DNA of 64,000 nt, from the NCBI GenBank assembly GCA_030390025.1, contig CM059432.1, positions 29,948,001-30,012,000 of the forward strand, read 5' to 3'. Below are positions 10,501 through 32,700 of the stretch, one piece after another; the stretch's first letter is position 1, and every line of letters starts with the position of its first letter. Both the position numbers and the translations under genes were made by a program. This DNA is from Squalus acanthias. Its lineage: Eukaryota. The notes below the pieces were generated by a model. The model ran no database searches, was not told the DNA's origin, and saw nothing but the letters and a program-made list of their open reading frames with translations.

Positions 10501-10690
10501 GTGCACTCTTATATTTATACGCTCTGTCCCTTCCTGTCACACTCTGGTTATCATTACCCCTATCGCTACCCTGCACTATTGCCTTCTCCTTTATCTTTGA
10601 CTTTTTAAATTTCCCCTCACCTGAACCCTCCCCCCAACTATTTAGTTTGAAGCTCTATCTACAGCCCTAGTCATTCGATTCGCCAGAACC
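7564..10690 (-). mobile_element. CR1 copy spanning all of ORF2 to the ORF1 end, disrupted
   Basis: ORF fragments [32 protein letters not shown] and RT C-terminus. Confidence 0.92.
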
Positions 10691-24300: not shown

Positions 24301-25431
24301 TCACTTCGACTTCGCTGTGTGGAACATTCATTGCATTGTTTCCTACACAGTAAAGTCAAAGTGATTTAAAAAAAATCATTTTTCAGGATGTGGGCGTTGC
24401 TGGAAAAGCCAGCATTTATTGCCCATCCCTATAAAGATTCCCCCTCAACCACCAGTACCAAAAAACATATGTCTACATAGTAACAGTGACTATACTTAAA
24501 AGGTAATCATTGGTAGTAAAGCGCTTTGGGATATTCTGAGATAACAAAAGGCTCCATATCAATGCCAGTTCTTTCTTTAAAAGATTGAAGGAAACTTGCA
24601 ATGTGTTTGATATATTCAAGTAGACATTTTTTTATGCTATTTCACACACCCTATTATAGGGATCATTGTCAATTGATTCAGAAGTAAACACGACTACTGC
24701 TTCAGGAACGAGAAGAAAAAAAACCAAACCAAACCAAACAAGACGTGACGAGAGGCAGTATCCTCAAGAGTGGTTTTGTTAAGATCAGTCAAGATGCCGA
24801 TTAACTTGCTTCAGATTACACTAATATTTTACAGTTTATTTTATATGTAGTGTCTGTGTAATTTTTTGATTAAATATCAATGACTGTGTCATTGCAATTT
24901 GAGTTATGTTGTACACCTGTGAATCAAAATGTTCTGAAATTTATCACTTAGCTCCATTGCTTGGGGGATCTAATTAAGTAAGTTTCAATTCTGTAGAATG
25001 AAGACTAATATTACAAAGAATAACAAATGCACTGCAATTGGCCTCGTTACTCTGGGCTTGGGTGGGAAAAATCAGCTATATTTCCTCCTCCTCTAACCTA
25101 ATAGTCTTTTAGCAGTCTAAAAACAGAGGTCACAAATTTTTTGGTCTCAGTTTCTTTTCAGCAGAGCAGGAACCGGGAGGAGCGGGAAGTCGGCGTAGGA
25201 CCAAGGGGACACAAGACCGGGAAGTCAGCGAAAGACCAGGGAGGTAAGACTAACTGGTAAGTACTTTCCTCAAACCTTCCTAGAAAGTACAACTAAAACT
25301 AGTGCGATTTGGTTAGTTTAAAAAGGAATAAGAGGAGTACAGTATACATTGGTCTAAGTAAGCTTCGGGAAAACAAAAGTCAATAAATAAACTAAAACTA
25401 GAAAATTAATAAGTAATATAAGGGTTAAGTC

Positions 25432-26379
25432 ATGGCAGTAGAGCTCGGACCTGTGTCATGCTCCTCCTGTAACATGTGGGAAATCATGGACGCTTCCTGT
25501 GTCCCTGACAACCATGTGTGCGGGAAGTGTGTCCAGCTGCAGCTCATGTGGGACCGCATGACGGCCCTTGAGCTGCGGATGGACTCACTTTGGAGCATCC
25601 ACGATTCTGAGAGGGTTGTGAATAGCACATTTAGTGAGTTGGTCACACCGCAGGTTAAGGCCAGAGTAGATAGTACATGGGTGACCAAAAGGCAGAGCAA
25701 GGGCAGGAAGGTAGTGCAGGAATCCCCTGGGGTTGTCTCCCTCAGCAACAGGTTCACCGCCTTAGGTGCTGTTGTCGGGGGGGATGACTCATCGGGGGAA
25801 GGCACCAGCAGCCAGGCTCATGGCACCATGACTGGCTCTGTTGCAAAGAAGGGAGGGAAAAAGAGTGGCAGGGCTATAGTAATAGGGGATTCGATTGTAA
25901 GGGGAATAGATAGGAGTTTCTGTGGTCGCGACCGAGACTCCAGGATGGTAATTTGCCTCCCTGGTGCAAGGGTCAAGGATGTCTCGGCGCGGGTGCAGAA
26001 CATTCTGGAGGGGGAGGGGGAACAGCCAGTTGTCATGATACATGTTGGTACCAACGACGTAGCTAAAAAAAGGGAAGAGGTCCTACAAGTAGAATTTAGG
26101 GAGTTAGGAGCCAAGCTAAAAAGTAGGACCTCGAAGGTAGTAATCTCTGGATTACTACCAGTGCCACGTGCTAGTAAGAGTACAGAGAACAGGATAGTTA
26201 GGCTAAATACGTGGCTTGAGCAGTGGTGTAAGAGGGAGGGTTTTAAATTTTTGAGGCATTGGGACCAGTTTTGTGGTAGGTGTGACCTATACAAAAGGGA
26301 CGGTCTACACCTGTGCAAAGATGGAACTGATGTTCTCGGGGTAAATTTTGATAAAGCAGTTCGGGAGCATTTAAACTAG
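25432..26379 (+). CDS. CR1 ORF1p (N-terminal CxxC-CxxC zinc finger/zipper + SGNH esterase domain)
   Basis: CSSC...CGKC; esterase blocks GDSIVRG, LPGA, HVGTND, DGLHL. Confidence 0.95.
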   Translation: MAVELGPVSCSSCNMWEIMDASCVPDNHVCGKCVQLQLMWDRMTALELRMDSLWSIHDSERVVNSTFSELVTPQVKARVDSTWVTKRQSKGRKVVQESPGVVSLSNRFTALGAVVGGDDSSGEGTSSQAHGTMTGSVAKKGGKKSGRAIVIGDSIVRGIDRSFCGRDRDSRMVICLPGARVKDVSARVQNILEGEGEQPVVMIHVGTNDVAKKREEVLQVEFRELGAKLKSRTSKVVISGLLPVPRASKSTENRIVRLNTWLEQWCKREGFKFLRHWDQFCGRCDLYKRDGLHLCKDGTDVLGVNFDKAVREHLN

Positions 26380-29321
26380 TATGGCAGGGGGCTAGAAACC
26401 CATGTAGTGAAATAGAGGAAAGTGAAAGGCAGACAGAAATAAATGGTAAAAAGGAGAGGAACAAAAAACAAAGGGCCAAACTAATTCATAAAAAATGTGA
26501 GCATAAAAAAAGCCTGAGGGTTTTATACCTTAATGCGAGAAGCATCAGGAACAAGGTAGATGAATTAGCTGTGGAAATAGAGGTTAATAATTATGATCTA
26601 ATTGGGATTACGGAAACATGGTTGCAGGGTGAGCAGGGCTGGGAGCTTAACATACAGGGGTATTCAGTATTTAGGAAGGATCGACAAAAAAGAAAGGGAG
26701 GAGGGGTAGCATTGCTGGTAAAAGAGGGGATAAATGCAATTGAAAGGAAGGATATTAACTCAGTTAATACAGAATCTATATGGGTGGAGCTAAGAAATAG
26801 CGAGGGGCGAAAAACATTAATAGGAGTGGTATATAGGCCTCCAAATAGTAAAATAGAGGTTGGGGAGGGCATCACGAGGGAAATTAGAGAAGCGTGCAAT
26901 AAGAGCACAGCTGTCATCATAGGTGACTTTAACTTACATATAGATTGGACTAGCCTAATCAGTAAAAATAATGAGGAGGAGGAATTCCTTGAGTGTTTAA
27001 GGGATGGTTATCTGGATCAATATGTCGAGGAACCAACTCGGGAACAGGCTATATTGGACTGGGTACTGTGCAATGAGAAGGGACTAATTAGTAATCTTGT
27101 TGTACGGGGACCCTTGGGTCAGAGCGATCATAACATGATCGATTTCTCACTCGAAATGGAGAGCGAAGAAATTGACTCAGAGACTCAGGTCCTGAATTTA
27201 AACAAGGGGAATTATGATGCCATTAGACGGGAACTGAGTAGGTCTGATTGGACAACGTTCCTGGGAGGACTGGAGGTAGATAAACAATGGCAAGCATTTA
27301 AAGATAGAATGACAAAATTGCAAAAATTGTTTATACCAATCTGGCATAAAAGGAAATCTAAAAAGGTGACTCAACCGTGGATAACAGGGGAAATTAGAGA
27401 CAGCATAAAATCCAAAGATAGGGCGTATAAAATAGCCAAAAAACGCGCCAGAGCGGAAGATTGGGAACAGTTTAAGATAGAGCAAAGGAGGGCAAAGGGC
27501 TTAATCAAGAAGGGCAAAATAGCTTACGAAAGCAAGCTGGCGGAAAATATAAAAACTAACTCCAAAAGCTTTTATAAGTATATCAAGAGGAAAAGACTGG
27601 TGAAAACCAAAGTTGGTCCATTGCAGTCAGATACGGGGGAATATATAATGGGAAATAAGGAAATGGCAGACCAACTAAATGCATACTTTGGGTCAGTCTT
27701 TACGAAGGAAGACACAAAAAACCTCCCTGGGATATCGGGAAAAATAGGGACATTGGCAAAGGAGGAACTGACGCAAATCAATATCTCTAAGGATATGGTG
27801 TTAAGGAAGCTAAAGGGATTGAAGGCGGACAAATCCCCAGGGCCTGATAACATGCATCCTAGGGTACTGAAGGAGGTGGCCCTAGAGATAGCGGATGCAC
27901 TAAGCATGATTTTTCAGAATTCATTAGACTCGGGAACAGTGCCCATGGATTGGAGGGTAGCTAACGTTACCCCACTATTCAAAAAGGGGGGTAGGGAAAA
28001 AGCAGGTAATTACAGACCTGTAAGCCTTACATCAGTTGTGGGCAAAATGCTGGAGTCCATCATTAAGGATGAAATAGCCGAGCACTTAGCAAATGGGGAC
28101 AGGATAGGACAGAGTCAACATGGATTTACAAAGGGTAAATCGTGCTTGACTAATCTATTGGAATTTTTTGAGGGAGTAACTGGTAAAATAGATGGGGGAG
28201 AGCCAGTAGATGTGGTGTACCTGGACTTCCAAAAGGCCTTCGATAAGGTCCCACATAAAAGATTAGCATGGAAAATTGAAGCTCATGGGATAAAGGGGAA
28301 AGTATTGACGTGGATAGAGAACTGGCTGTCAGATAGAAAACAGAGAGTTGGAATAAACGGCTCATTTTCTGAATGGCAGGCAGTAACAAGTGGGGTACCA
28401 CAGGGATCTGTCCTGGGTCCCCAGCTGTTCACAATTTATATTAATGACCTGGATCAGGGAGTCGAATGCAGCATTTCCAAATTTGCAGACGACACTAAAC
28501 TAGGAGGGGGGGTGGGCTCAGAGGAGGAGACCAGGAAGCTCCAGAGCGATTTGGACAGACTGGGTGATTGGGCGGATAAATGGCAGATGCACTATAATGT
28601 GGACAAGTGCGAAGTTATCCACCTTGGGTGCAGGAACGGGAGGGCAAATTATTATTTAAATGGCAATAAATTGGGAGAGGGGGAAGTACAGAGAGACCTG
28701 GGTGTTCTTGTACACCAGTCACTGAAGGCGAGCATGCAGGTGCAACAGGCGGTCAAGAAGGCAAACGGTATGCTGGCCTTCATAGCAAAAGGGTTGGAAT
28801 ACAGGAACAGGGATACCTTGCTGCAGCTGTACAGGGCACTGGTGAGACCACACCTCGAGTACTGTGTACAGTTTTGGTCGCCTCATCTGAGGAAAGATGT
28901 TCTTGCCATGGAGGGGGTGCAGCGGCGATTCACCAGGCTGATACCAGGAATGGCGGGATTGACCTATGAGGAGAGACTATGTAGTTTAGGGATGTACACA
29001 CTGGAGTTTAGAAGATTGAGAGGGGACCTCATAGAAGTGTATAAAATTCTGACAGGTCTAGACAGATTAGATGCAGAAGGAATGTTTCCCTTGGCGGGTG
29101 AGAACAGAACTAGAGGACATAATTTAAGGATAAGGGCTAAACCATTTAGGACAGAAATGAGGGGGAATTTCTTCACTCAGAGAGTGGTGAACCTGTGGAA
29201 CTCATTGCCACAGAGGGCAGTGTACGCCAGCTCATTAAATATATTTAAGAGGGAATTAGATATATTTCTACAGGCAAAAGGGGTTAAGGGTTACGGAGAG
29301 AAGGCGGGGACGGGATACTGA
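26355..29321 (+). CDS. CR1 ORF2p (APE endonuclease + reverse transcriptase); stop-to-stop extent, no AUG at the start
   Basis: Frame open from just after TAA at 26352-26354. APE motifs YLNARS, ITETW, VYRPP, GDFN, SDH; RT motifs [32 protein letters not shown]. Confidence 0.95.
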   Translation, partial: SSSGAFKLVWQGARNPCSEIEESERQTEINGKKERNKKQRAKLIHKKCEHKKSLRVLYLNARSIRNKVDELAVEIEVNNYDLIGITETWLQGEQGWELNIQGYSVFRKDRQKRKGGGVALLVKEGINAIERKDINSVNTESIWVELRNSEGRKTLIGVVYRPPNSKIEVGEGITREIREACNKSTAVIIGDFNLHIDWTSLISKNNEEEEFLECLRDGYLDQYVEEPTREQAILDWVLCNEKGLISNLVVRGPLGQSDHNMIDFSLEMESEEIDSETQVLNLNKGNYDAIRRELSRSDWTTFLGGLEVDKQWQAFKDRMTKLQKLFIPIWHKRKSKKVTQPWITGEIRDSIKSKDRAYKIAKKRARAEDWEQFKIEQRRAKGLIKKGKIAYESKLAENIKTNSKSFYKYIKRKRLVKTKVGPLQSDTGEYIMGNKEMADQLNAYFGSVFTKEDTKNLPGISGKIGTLAKEELTQINISKDMVLRKLKGLKADKSPGPDNMHPRVLKEVALEIADALSMIFQNSLDSGTVPMDWRVANVTPLFKKGGREKAGNYRPVSLTSVVGKMLESIIKDEIAEHLANGDRIGQSQHGFTKGKSCLTNLLEFFEGVTGKIDGGEPVDVVYLDFQKAFDKVPHKRLAWKIEAHGIKGKVLTWIENWLSDRKQRVGINGSFSEWQAVTSGVPQGSVLGPQLFTIYINDLDQGVECSISKFADDTKLGGGVGSEEETRKLQSDLDRLGDWADKWQMHYNVDKCEVIHLGCRNGRANYYLNGNKLGEGEVQRDLGVLVHQSLKASMQVQQAVKKANGMLAFIAKGLEYRNRDTLLQLYRALVRPHLEYCVQFWSPHLRKDVLAMEGVQRRFTRLIPGMAGLTYEERLCSLGMYTLEFRRLRGDLIEVYKILTGLDRLDAEGMFPLAGENRTRGHNLRIRAKPFRTEMRGNFFTQRVVNLWNSLPQRAVYASSLNIFKRELDIFLQAKGVKGYGEKAGTGY

Positions 29322-29459
29322 ATTGAAGGATCAGCCATGATCTCATTAAATGGCGGAGCAGGCTCGAAGGGCCGGATGGCCTACTCCTGCTCCTATCTTC
29401 TATGTATCTATGTATCTATGATCAATATTCAGTAACTCTTGATGGACCATATCTGTAAT

Positions 29460-29721: not shown

Positions 29722-32700
29722 ACATAGAATGGTTACAGCAGGGAAGGCCATTCGGCCCATCGAGCCCGTGCCGGCTCTCTGCAAGAGCACTTCAGTTAGT
29801 CCCACTCCCCCGCCCTGCAAATTTTTTTCCTTCAGGTACTTATCCAATTCCCTTTTGAAAGCCGTGATTTGAGTCTGCCTCCACCACCCTTTCAGGCATT
29901 GCATTCCAGATCCTAACCACTCGCTCAGTAAAAATGTTTTTTCTCATATTGCCTTTTGTTCTTCTGCCAATCACCTTAAGTCTGTGTCCCCCTGGTTCTC
30001 GACCCTTCTGCCAATGGGAACAGTTTCTCTCTATCTACTCTGTCCAGACCCCTCATGATTTTGAACACTTCTATCAAATCTCCTCTCAATCTTCTCTGCT
30101 CTAAGGAGAACAACCCCAGCTTCTCCAGTCTATCCACGTAACTGAAGTTCCTCATCCCTGGAATCATTCTCGTAAATCTTTTCTGCACCCTCTCTAAGGC
30201 CTTCACATCCTTCCTAAAGTGTGGTGCCCAGAATTGGACACAATACTCCAGTTGAGGCCGAACCAGCGTTTTATACAGGTTCATCATAATTTCCACGCTT
30301 TTGTACTCTACATCTCTATTCATGAAGCCCAGGATCCCGTAAGCTTTTTTAACTGCTTTCTCAACCAGCCCTGCCACCTTCAACGATTTGAGCACATATA
30401 CCCCCAGGTCTCTCCGTTCGTGCACCCACTTTAGGATTGTACCCTTTAGTTTATATTTCCTCTCTTCATTCTTTCTACCAAAATGTATCATTTTGCACTT
30501 TCCTGCGTTAAATTTCATCTGCCATGTGTCCACCCATTCCACCAGCCTATGTCCTCTTGGAGTCTATCAACTATCCTCCTCACTGTTCACTATACTTCCA
30601 AGTTTTGTGTCATCTGCAAATTTTGAAATTGTGCCCTGTACACCCACATCCAAGTCATTAATATACATCAAGAAAAGCAGTGATCCTAGAACCGACCCCG
30701 GGGAACACCACTGTATACCTTCCTCCAGTCCAAAAAACAACCGTTCACCACTACTCTGTTTCCTGCCACTTAGCCAATTTCGTATCCATGCTGCCACTGT
30801 CCCTTTTATGGGCTTCAACTTTGCAGGCAAGCCTATTATGTGGCACTTTGTCGAACGCCTTTTGGAAATCCACGTACACCATGTCAACCGCATTGCCCGC
30901 ATCAACCCTCTCTGTTACCTCATCAAACAACTCGATCAAGTTGGTTTAACAATTCTTTAATTAATCCACACTTGTCCAAATGACTGTTAATTTTGTCCTG
31001 GATTATGGTTTCTAAAAGCTTCCCCACTACCGAGGTTAAACTGACTGGCCTGTAGTTGCTGGGTTTATCTTTACACCCTTTTTTGAACAAGTGTGTAACA
31101 TTTGCAATTCTCCAGTCCTCTAGCACCATTCCCGTTTCTAAGGAGGATTGGAAGATTATGGCCAGTACCTCCACGATTTCTTCCTTCACTTCTCTCAGCG
31201 TCCTAGGATGCATCCCATCTGGTCCTGGTGACTTATCTACTTTAAGTACAGCCAGCCTTTCTAGTACCTCCTCTTTATCAATTTTTATCTCATCCAGTAT
31301 CTCCTCTACCTCCCCCTTCACTATGTCTATGGCAGCATCTTCTTCCTTGGTGAAGACAGATGCAAAGTACTCATTTAGCACCTCAGCCATACCCTCTGCC
31401 TCCATGCATAGGTCTTCTTTTTGGTCCCTAATCGGCCCCACCCCTTCTCTTACTACGCATTTGCTATTTATATGCCTATAGAAGACTTTTGGATTACCTT
31501 TTATGTCAGCTGCCATTCTAATCTCATACCCTCTCTTTGCCCCTCTTATTTTCTTTTTCACTTCTCCTCTGAACTTTCGATATTTAGCCTGATTCTCAGA
31601 TGTATCCTCGACCGGACATCTCTCATACGCGCTCTTTTTCTGCTTCATCTTACTCTCTATCTCTTTCATCATCCAGGGAGCTCTGACTTTAGTTGCCCTA
31701 CCTTTCCCCCTAGTGGGAATGTACTTTGACTGTACCCGAACTATTTCCTCTTTAAAGGCAGCTTATTGTTCCATTACTGTTTTGCTTGCCAATCTTTGAT
31801 TACAATTTACCCAGGCCAGATCTGTTCTCATCCCACTGAAATTTGCCTTCCTCCAATTAAGTATTTTTTACTTTAGATTGCTCCCAGTCCTTTTCCATAG
31901 CTAATCTAAACCTTATGATACTATGATCACTGTTCCCTAAATGTTCACCTCCTGACACTTGCTCCACTTGACCGACCTCATTCCCCATAACCAGATCCAG
32001 CAATGCCTCCTTCCTCGTTGGGCCGGAAACATACTGATTAAGAAAGTTCTCCTGAACACACTTCAGAAATTCTTCCCCCCTCTCTGCCCTTAACACCATT
32101 ACTATCCCAGTCTATATTAAGATAGTTGAAGTCCTCTCTATAGTTCTTGCATCCCTCTGTAATTTCTCTGCAAATTTGCTCCTCCATATTTTTCCCACTA
32201 GTTGGTGGCCTATAGAATCACCTAGTACTGTAATGGCACCTCTATTATTTCTTAACTCTAGCCATATAGATTCTGTCCTTGACCCCTTCAGGACATCCTC
32301 TCTCTCCAGCACGGTAACATTCTCCTTAACCAATACTGCCACACCACCTCCTATCTTTCCAGAACACCTTATATCCAGGAATATTTAATACCCCATCCTG
32401 CCCTTTTTTGAGCCAGGTCTCAGCTATTGCCACATCATCATATTCTCATGTGGCTATTTGCACCTGCAGCTCACCCACCTTGTTTACTATGCTTCGTGCG
32501 TTCACGTACATACTCTGTAAACCTATCTTAGACCATCCTGTGTTCTCTCTTAGTCTGACCCCACCTAATACCATACTATTTCTTACTTTAGTGTTATCCG
32601 TCCCTCCCAATCCTTTGTTTCTCATTTCTAATGCTACATCCTGGTGCCCATCTTCCTGCCAACTTAGTTTAAACCCTCTCCAACAGCACTATCAAACCTC

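What the first reader, a model, noticed from the sequence alone, without database searches (positions are those of the whole stretch)
26355..26420. CR1 ORF2 lacks a start codon and is reached in the -1 frame at a U_UUA_AAC slippery site: candidate programmed ribosomal frameshift
Seen: ORF1 ends CAT TTA AAC TAG (stop ends at 26379). The heptamer T_TTA_AAC (26370-26376) is in the X_XXY_YYZ phase. The -1 frame is open from 26355 through the APE motif YLNARS and on to 29321, and its first in-frame ATG comes only after the APE SDH motif. A G-rich segment with pairing potential (atggcagggggctagaaacccat) follows about 4 nt downstream. Known: UUUAAAC is the coronavirus -1 frameshift heptamer, whereas L1 ORF2 uses termination-reinitiation. 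Inference: this CR1 makes an esterase-ORF1/APE-RT fusion in Gag-Pol fashion. Overlapping CR1 ORFs may have been discussed before; I cannot check how novel this is.
Basis: partly seen in the sequence, partly recalled or inferred. Interest (0 to 1): 0.8.

Follow-up and report, generated by a model that had tools for sequence, protein, structure and literature searches.

The report
Conserved slippery site in CR1 LINEs
In this abundant vertebrate jumping gene the second gene has no usable start codon, and a seven-letter slippery sequence that distant relatives also keep sits against the first gene's stop, so the copying enzyme is likely made when some ribosomes slip back one base, as retroviruses do for Gag-Pol.

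Summary
Observation confirmed. The window holds an intact copy of a very young CR1 LINE (25084-29420). ORF1 (esterase) ends T_TTA_AAC_TAG; the -1 frame runs to 29321, and its first AUG lies 255 codons on, past the endonuclease motifs. This is the family state (10 of 12 full copies). The heptamer-plus-stop recurs at the ORF1 end in other lineages of this genome, in bird-like loci, and as a terminal Leu-Asn in shark, coelacanth, frog, turtle, lizard and bird ORF1 proteins. A distant clade has G_GGA_AAC instead (2 DNA loci), with the preceding residue switching to match. Linkers of 111-264 nt keep the -1 frame. Best reading: -1 programmed frameshifting giving a 1296-aa fusion (about 0.8; untested). 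A G-tract 8-13 nt downstream is conserved, but no pseudoknot or long-range pairing was found, so the stimulator is open. Some lineages carry an in-frame AUG, which keeps reinitiation alive. I found no CR1 frameshift report in ten searches, but could not read the original CR1 papers; a review asserts -1 frameshifting for Dictyostelium TRE LINEs. This scan noted the same site before on other DNA.

The parts
25084..29420 (+). Full-length young CR1 LINE copy (4337 nt)
   Evidence: Ends shared with other genomic copies at 99.7-99.95% identity
25084..25431 (+). 5' UTR without any AUG
   Evidence: Sequence read directly; boundary
25432..26379 (+). ORF1, 315 aa, N-terminal Cys motifs and SGNH/GDSL esterase, ends His-Leu-Asn-stop
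26370..26376 (+). Slippery heptamer U_UUA_AAC, candidate -1 shift site
   Evidence: conservation
26377..26379 (+). ORF1 stop directly after the heptamer; read as CTA (Leu) in the -1 frame
   Evidence: TAG, TAA and TGA all occur in relatives
26387..26391 (+). Conserved G-tract, 10-nt spacer from the heptamer; candidate 3' stimulator of unknown kind
   Evidence: G in 16-18 of 19 representatives at each of these five positions
26376..26525 (+). Linker from shift site to the APE motif, open only in the -1 frame
   Evidence: 0 stops in -1 frame, 5 and 9 in the other two
26376..29321 (+). ORF2 part of the predicted fusion (981 aa, APE + RT)
27135..27137 (+). First AUG in the ORF2 frame, after the APE SDH motif
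29355..29393 (+). Predicted 3' UTR stem-loop
   Evidence: Fold
29400..29420 (+). 3' terminal short tandem repeat, 8-nt unit, no poly(A)

Best explanation
This CR1 LINE has an AUG-less ORF2 that overlaps the ORF1 end in the -1 frame at a conserved slippery heptamer, and it likely makes its endonuclease-reverse transcriptase by -1 programmed ribosomal frameshifting there. Shown: the layout, its conservation and the covariation. Inferred steps: ribosomes start at the ORF1 AUG (the first AUG of the element); most end at the stop and release the 35-kDa esterase ORF1p; a minority, with tRNA-Leu on UUA and tRNA-Asn on AAC, slip back one base, read CUA instead of the stop and make a 1296-aa (147-kDa) ORF1p-APE-RT fusion. 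The pause is probably supplied by the adjacent stop together with the G-tract 10 nt downstream, acting as a linear protein-bound or G-quadruplex-like signal rather than a pseudoknot (the weakest step, about 0.4).
For: (1) Two young families with intact copies lack any AUG before the APE domain: this one (first Met at codon 255) and L159 (981 codons open, first Met at 166, APE motif at 45). (2) Own-genome loci found with ORF1 queries that omitted the last residues: heptamer exact and in place in 15 of 22 and 11 of 16, intact but displaced by an indel in 4 and 2 more (L116 seen), altered in 3 and 3. (3) Metagenome loci found by ORF1 mid-domain peptides: 13 of 29 show the junction; 9 have T_TTA_AAC (8 with TAG next), 2 G_GGA_AAC+TAG, 1 G_TTA_AAC+TAG, 1 decayed. 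(4) PMC5009743 lists U_UUA_AAC and G_GGA_AAC among the most shifty heptamers on mammalian ribosomes and G_UU(A) for equine arteritis virus. (5) Of 98 de-replicated ORF1 proteins with a natural end, 39 end in LN and 9 in GN; the residue before LN is one whose codon cannot end in T in 0 of 39 (48 of 273 at positions -4 to -10, Fisher p 0.0015), while before GN it is Gln in 8 of 9. One row nested among the GN rows reads FLN. (6) Only TTA and AAC are used, though TTA is 21 of 120 Leu codons and AAC 27 of 61 Asn codons in this element. (7) In 14 of 14 representatives with the APE motif in range the linker (111-264 nt, 9 lengths) has 0 stops in the -1 frame and 2-17 in the others. (8) In contigs of three runs, 26369-26390 carries one listed variant (TAG to TAA), against 14 variant sites in the 49 nt before and 19 in the 43 nt after. 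(9) The Leu codon before the APE motif varies among six codons, so it is no conserved CUG start.
Against: No experimental evidence. No conserved stem-loop or pseudoknot: downstream fold z-scores were -1.4 to +2.1 in 19 representatives, and a G-quadruplex was predicted in only 5 of 19, not in this family. Nine of the 14 linkers hold an in-frame AUG, some 2 nt after the stop (bird-like L133, L134, L136, L137) or at codon 7 (L094 family), so AUG reinitiation could serve those lineages. The representatives were picked by me as the best-preserved copies; among older own-genome copies only 8 of 19 keep the frame, and L142 has lost both heptamer and frame. Lineages are related, so p-values overstate independence; G_GGA_AAC rests on 2 DNA loci of one clade. 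44 of 98 esterase ORF1 proteins do not end in Asn; they include the teleost clade, so the signal is not universal.
Confidence: 0.8

Rival explanations
1. Termination-reinitiation as in L1 or SART1: ribosomes finish ORF1, then restart next to the stop at an AUG where one exists or without AUG, giving a separate ORF2p. The conserved block would be a reinitiation signal.
For: ORF2 translation depends on ORF1 translation in L1 and SART1 (PMC2881922 passage); AUG-independent initiation is favoured for L1 (PMC5009743). In-frame AUG 2 nt after the stop in 4 bird-like loci and at codon 7 in one shark family. The stop is as conserved as the heptamer.
Against: Does not explain the switch between U_UUA_AAC and G_GGA_AAC with the XXX triplet kept. 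The AUG-proximal codon varies freely (ATG, GTG, TCG, TGG, TGT). Two intact families have no AUG before the APE.
Confidence: 0.12
2. The terminal Leu-Asn is needed by the ORF1 protein, and ORF2 comes from a near-cognate start (such as CTG at 26514) by leaky scanning, an IRES or an internal promoter.
For: LN is invariant in the close-homologue alignment; near-cognate codons exist in the linker; an IRES-type route is discussed for LINEs in PMC3894237.
Against: Protein need cannot fix the codons TTA and AAC or the third base of the codon before; the terminal Asn stays while its distance from the DGLHL motif varies from 23 to 39 aa; related esterases lack it; no near-cognate codon is conserved.
Confidence: 0.05
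3. A spliced RNA brings ORF2 in frame, with CTAA/CTAG as a branch-point-like motif and the AG before the G-tract as acceptor.
For: CAG precedes the G-tract in this and two other families; donor-like motifs lie in the 5' UTR.
Against: No pyrimidine tract; the AG is missing in other lineages (L094, L122, L130); the 5' UTR has no AUG to donate. No joint at the junction, and X1 record 6 spans 26264-26682 without a gap; these are contigs whose RNA status is a guess, so this is weak.
Confidence: 0.03

Closest known systems
Viral -1 programmed frameshift sites with U_UUA_AAC, G_GGA_AAC or G_UUA_AAC (coronavirus, retrovirus, arterivirus type; PMC5009743, passages)
   Same: Same heptamers, same phase, upstream structural ORF and downstream polymerase ORF without a start codon.
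   Different: No stem-loop or pseudoknot at 5-9 nt was found; the host element is a non-LTR retrotransposon with an esterase ORF1, and no protease domain was detected in ORF2.
Dictyostelium TRE5-A and TRE3-A non-LTR elements (PMC5911963, figure-legend passage)
   Same: APE-RT LINEs stated to require a -1 frameshift for ORF2.
   Different: Another lineage with poly(A) tails and a non-esterase ORF1; I did not see the primary evidence or their shift site.
PRRSV nsp2 -2/-1 frameshift stimulated by nsp1-beta and PCBP on a linear C-rich motif 11 nt downstream (PMC5009743)
   Same: A short unstructured low-complexity motif at about the same distance from the shift site.
   Different: Here the motif is G-rich and no binding protein is known; the likeness is a lead only.
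L1 and SART1 ORF2 translation by termination-reinitiation (PMC2881922, PMC3894237, PMC10275272; passages)
   Same: Bicistronic LINE RNA, ORF2 presumably dependent on ORF1 translation and made at a lower level.
   Different: No conserved stop-start pentamer or AUG; a conserved, covarying slippery heptamer instead; a fusion rather than a free ORF2p is predicted.
Vertebrate canonical CR1 with esterase ORF1 (PMC13343379, passages and supplement hits)
   Same: Same architecture; consensus entries named CR1 in its supplement show the same junction motif.
   Different: The paper's main text has no occurrence of frameshift, overlap, start codon or translation.

Membership tests
CR1 LINE | ORF2 with APE and RT domains | tested here: met
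   Pfam Exo_endo_phos and RVT_1
CR1 LINE | Esterase-type ORF1 | tested here: met
   Lipase_GDSL_2, E 5e-11; nearest named homologues are from sharks and rays
CR1 LINE | 3' end with stem-loop and short tandem repeat, no poly(A) (feature recalled) | tested here: met
CR1 LINE | Placement in the canonical CR1 clade by RT phylogeny | not tested
   No reference RT set; only an ORF1 tree was built
-1 programmed ribosomal frameshift | X_XXY_YYZ heptamer in phase at the overlap | tested here: met
-1 programmed ribosomal frameshift | Heptamer conserved beyond coding need, changing only between slippery forms | tested here: met
-1 programmed ribosomal frameshift | Downstream ORF open in the -1 frame from the heptamer | tested here: met
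   decayed exceptions
-1 programmed ribosomal frameshift, classical type | Stable stem-loop or pseudoknot 5-9 nt downstream | tested here: not met
   no dedicated pseudoknot program was run, but C-rich partners for the G-tract are lacking in most lineages
-1 programmed ribosomal frameshift, long-distance (BYDV) type | Pairing of the post-slip sequence with the 3' end | tested here: inconclusive
   This family z -1.8 (10 of 200 shuffles), but the partner is inside the 3' stem-loop; five other copies z -1.0 to +1.6, no cognate preference
-1 programmed ribosomal frameshift | Trans-frame product or measured efficiency | not testable with these tools
   Needs reporter, ribosome profiling or mass spectrometry
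SART1-type stop-start coupling | Conserved AUG overlapping or abutting the stop in the ORF2 frame | tested here: not met
   The ATG at 26381 is out of frame and opens 4 codons; in-frame AUG only in some lineages

The most novel reading that the evidence does not exclude
Esterase-ORF1 CR1 LINEs, the dominant retrotransposons of most vertebrates, and related non-vertebrate-type lineages all make reverse transcriptase as a Gag-Pol-like ORF1p fusion through an ancient -1 frameshift, driven by an adjacent stop and a G-tract that acts without Watson-Crick structure (protein-bound or G-quadruplex), a stimulator type not yet shown in a natural frameshift site.
Probability: 0.35. Interest if true: 0.88.

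Novelty: new variant of a known kind. Interest (0 to 1): 0.72.

Why it matters
How LINE ORF2 is translated is called an open question in reviews (PMC3894237, PMC5009743). CR1-group elements cover 22-34% of shark and ray genomes (PMC13343379). A frameshift would mean that the true RT protein is an esterase-APE-RT fusion, that ORF2 annotations starting at the first Met lose the endonuclease, that CR1 retrotransposition constructs must keep the junction, and that ORF1p:RT stoichiometry is set as in retroviruses. It gives a 22-nt target that can be tested at once.

Tried and rejected
Conserved local structure: none in 19 representatives. Long-range partner for the G-tract anywhere in the element: best duplex no better than block-shuffled controls in 5 of 6 elements; in L161 it was better (-21.7 against -18.2 to -19.1) but at a site not shared with the others. 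Pairing with the 3' end: not consistent across families; L159 keeps the G-tract with a different tail that pairs worse than shuffles. Scans of viral contigs and prokaryote genomes found no relatives; one own-genome query found nothing. Run X10 laid nothing and X12 one contig. Supplement of PMC4316615: one of two files searched, no junction hit, one file not searchable. Not held, so unread: Kajikawa 1997 on turtle CR1, Kojima 2005, Alisch 2006, and one PMC id recalled for a chicken repeat paper; Haas 1997 and 2001 were not tried. No structure or complex prediction was run, since it would not bear on the question.
Full report
What is there. The window lies in a 3.7-Gb genome; the nearest named ORF1 homologues are from sharks and rays, so the host is inferred to be a cartilaginous fish. 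Bases 25084-29420 are a full copy of a very young LINE: 12 other copies align at 99.7-99.95%. It has an AUG-free 5' UTR, a 315-aa GDSL-esterase ORF1, an APE-RT ORF2, a predicted 3' stem-loop and an 8-nt terminal repeat. This is CR1 architecture; I did not build an RT tree.

The observation. ORF1 ends CAT TTA AAC TAG, with TTTAAAC at 26370-26376 in slippery phase. The -1 frame is open from 26355 to 29321. Its first ATG is at 27135, after the APE SDH motif. The ATG at 26381 is out of frame and opens four codons. All 40 copies scored are identical over the junction, and 10 of 12 full copies share the 983-codon frame and the late Met. The missing AUG is therefore the state of the active family.

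Conservation in this genome. Queries from diverged ORF1 ends pulled other lineages. L061-L090 (query included the terminal LN) all read GGT TTA AAC TAA; one full copy, L159, has 981 open codons with first Met at 166, behind the APE motif at 45. With queries that omitted the last residues the heptamer was exact and in place in 15 of 22 and 11 of 16 loci, displaced by an indel in 4 and 2, altered in 3 and 3. Two older CR1 copies in the window show the same junction, one with a single change.

Conservation elsewhere. ORF1 proteins end in xLN in sharks and rays, in coelacanth and frogs, and in turtles, a swallow and a monitor lizard. A metagenome scan with mid-domain peptides gave 29 loci; 13 show the junction: 9 T_TTA_AAC, 2 G_GGA_AAC, 1 G_TTA_AAC and 1 decayed. 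In the supplement of PMC13343379 a motif search showed the junction, judged by eye, in entries prefixed AllMis, CroPor, AmiCal, AquCat, CalMil, LatCha, PogVit, HypSab, PriPec, ScyCan and SquAca. That search was by the motif and also hit unrelated places, so it shows presence only; I saw 11 of 14, 11 of 11 and 4 of 6 places for the three stop variants.

Why this is a nucleotide signal. Codons are fixed at TTA and AAC, though these are 21 of 120 and 27 of 61 in the element. Among 98 de-replicated proteins with a natural end, 39 end in LN and 9 in GN. Before LN, residues whose codons cannot end in T occur in 0 of 39 (48 of 273 further upstream); before GN, Gln occurs in 8 of 9. DNA confirms CAG GGA AAC TAG and GCG GGA AAC TAG. 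On a tree of 62 hand-picked rows built without the C-terminal residues, the GN rows sit in one supported branch of 19 rows that also holds an FLN row and rows without Asn; seven rows without Asn, including teleost proteins, form their own branch. Kin share labels, so the switch counts as one or two events. U_UUA_AAC and G_GGA_AAC are listed among the most shifty heptamers (PMC5009743). In contigs of three runs the 22 nt from 26369 to 26390 show only a stop-to-stop change.

Frame. In 14 of 14 representatives with the APE motif in range (5 of 19 had none in range), linkers of nine different lengths are free of stops only in the -1 frame. I chose well-preserved copies; among older copies 8 of 19 keep the frame. 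Nine of the 14 linkers hold an in-frame AUG, the main support for the reinitiation rival; five do not.

Stimulator. No lineage folds much better than shuffles. A run of G starts 8-13 nt after the heptamer in 18 of 19 representatives. It could be coded (Gly-Glu/Asp-Gly in the -1 frame), but third codon positions are G too (17 of 19 at the first Gly, against GGG in 42 of 111 Gly codons). A G-quadruplex is predicted in 5 of 19. Earlier notes of this scan proposed pairing with the 3' end in other LINEs; here it is marginal for this family and absent in others. The spacing resembles the PRRSV protein-bound motif, and a nearby stop is important at the pea enation mosaic virus site (PMC5009743); both are leads.

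Mechanism. Most likely -1 frameshifting by tandem slippage, giving ...REHLN-LVWQGARN... and a 1296-aa, 146.8-kDa fusion beside the 34.9-kDa ORF1p. Confidence 0.8; reinitiation 0.12; others 0.08.

Literature. Ten full-text searches gave no report of frameshifting in CR1. Seen as passages: PMC11835228, PMC5009743 (first 300,000 characters held; no 'CR1' in them), PMC2881922, PMC10275272, PMC13343379, PMC3905857, PMC5911963, PMC5006619; one section and passages of PMC3894237; supplement hits only for PMC4316615. PMC5911963 states that Dictyostelium TRE5-A and TRE3-A require a -1 frameshift, so the idea is not new for LINEs as a class. The original chicken and turtle CR1 papers were not seen and may have proposed it. 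This scan noted the same site in another window of this genome and in other genomes; those are AI notes and no support.

Verdict. A real, conserved feature; a new variant of a known mechanism; interest 0.72.

Noticed in passing
window 32664-32673, minus strand: A second, older CR1 with the same heptamer and TAA at its ORF1 end.
   Followed up: yes
window 10642-10651, minus strand: A third, 5'-truncated CR1 that begins just upstream of its junction; heptamer with one change, -1 frame still open into the APE over 207 nt.
   Followed up: partly
window 25243-25262 and 25140-25161: The CR1 5' UTR holds two splice-donor-like motifs and, upstream, a pyrimidine tract ending in CAG; it may donate or trap splicing of host transcripts.
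   Followed up: no
proteins P0217, P0235, P0189, P0228, P0242: ORF1 ends FFR, FFH, SKN and FFN would fit other slippery heptamers (U_UUU_UUY, A_AAA_AAC); no DNA was available.
   Followed up: no
L159 versus window 29322-29420: Two shark CR1 families with similar junctions have different 3' tails that share only a GGGCC hairpin core.
   Followed up: partly
L114-L128 and L106, just after the ORF1 stop: In older families the G-tract expands into long poly-G runs and is the usual site of frame-breaking indels.
   Followed up: no
protein P0012: A shark-type CR1 ORF1 (56% identical) is filed under Pseudomonas aeruginosa on a 4-kb contig, probably contamination.
   Followed up: no
proteins P0105, P0032: Stingray gene models fuse ORF1 to ORF2-frame sequence; P0105 reads FKL at the junction, the -1 reading of the heptamer.
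   Followed up: partly
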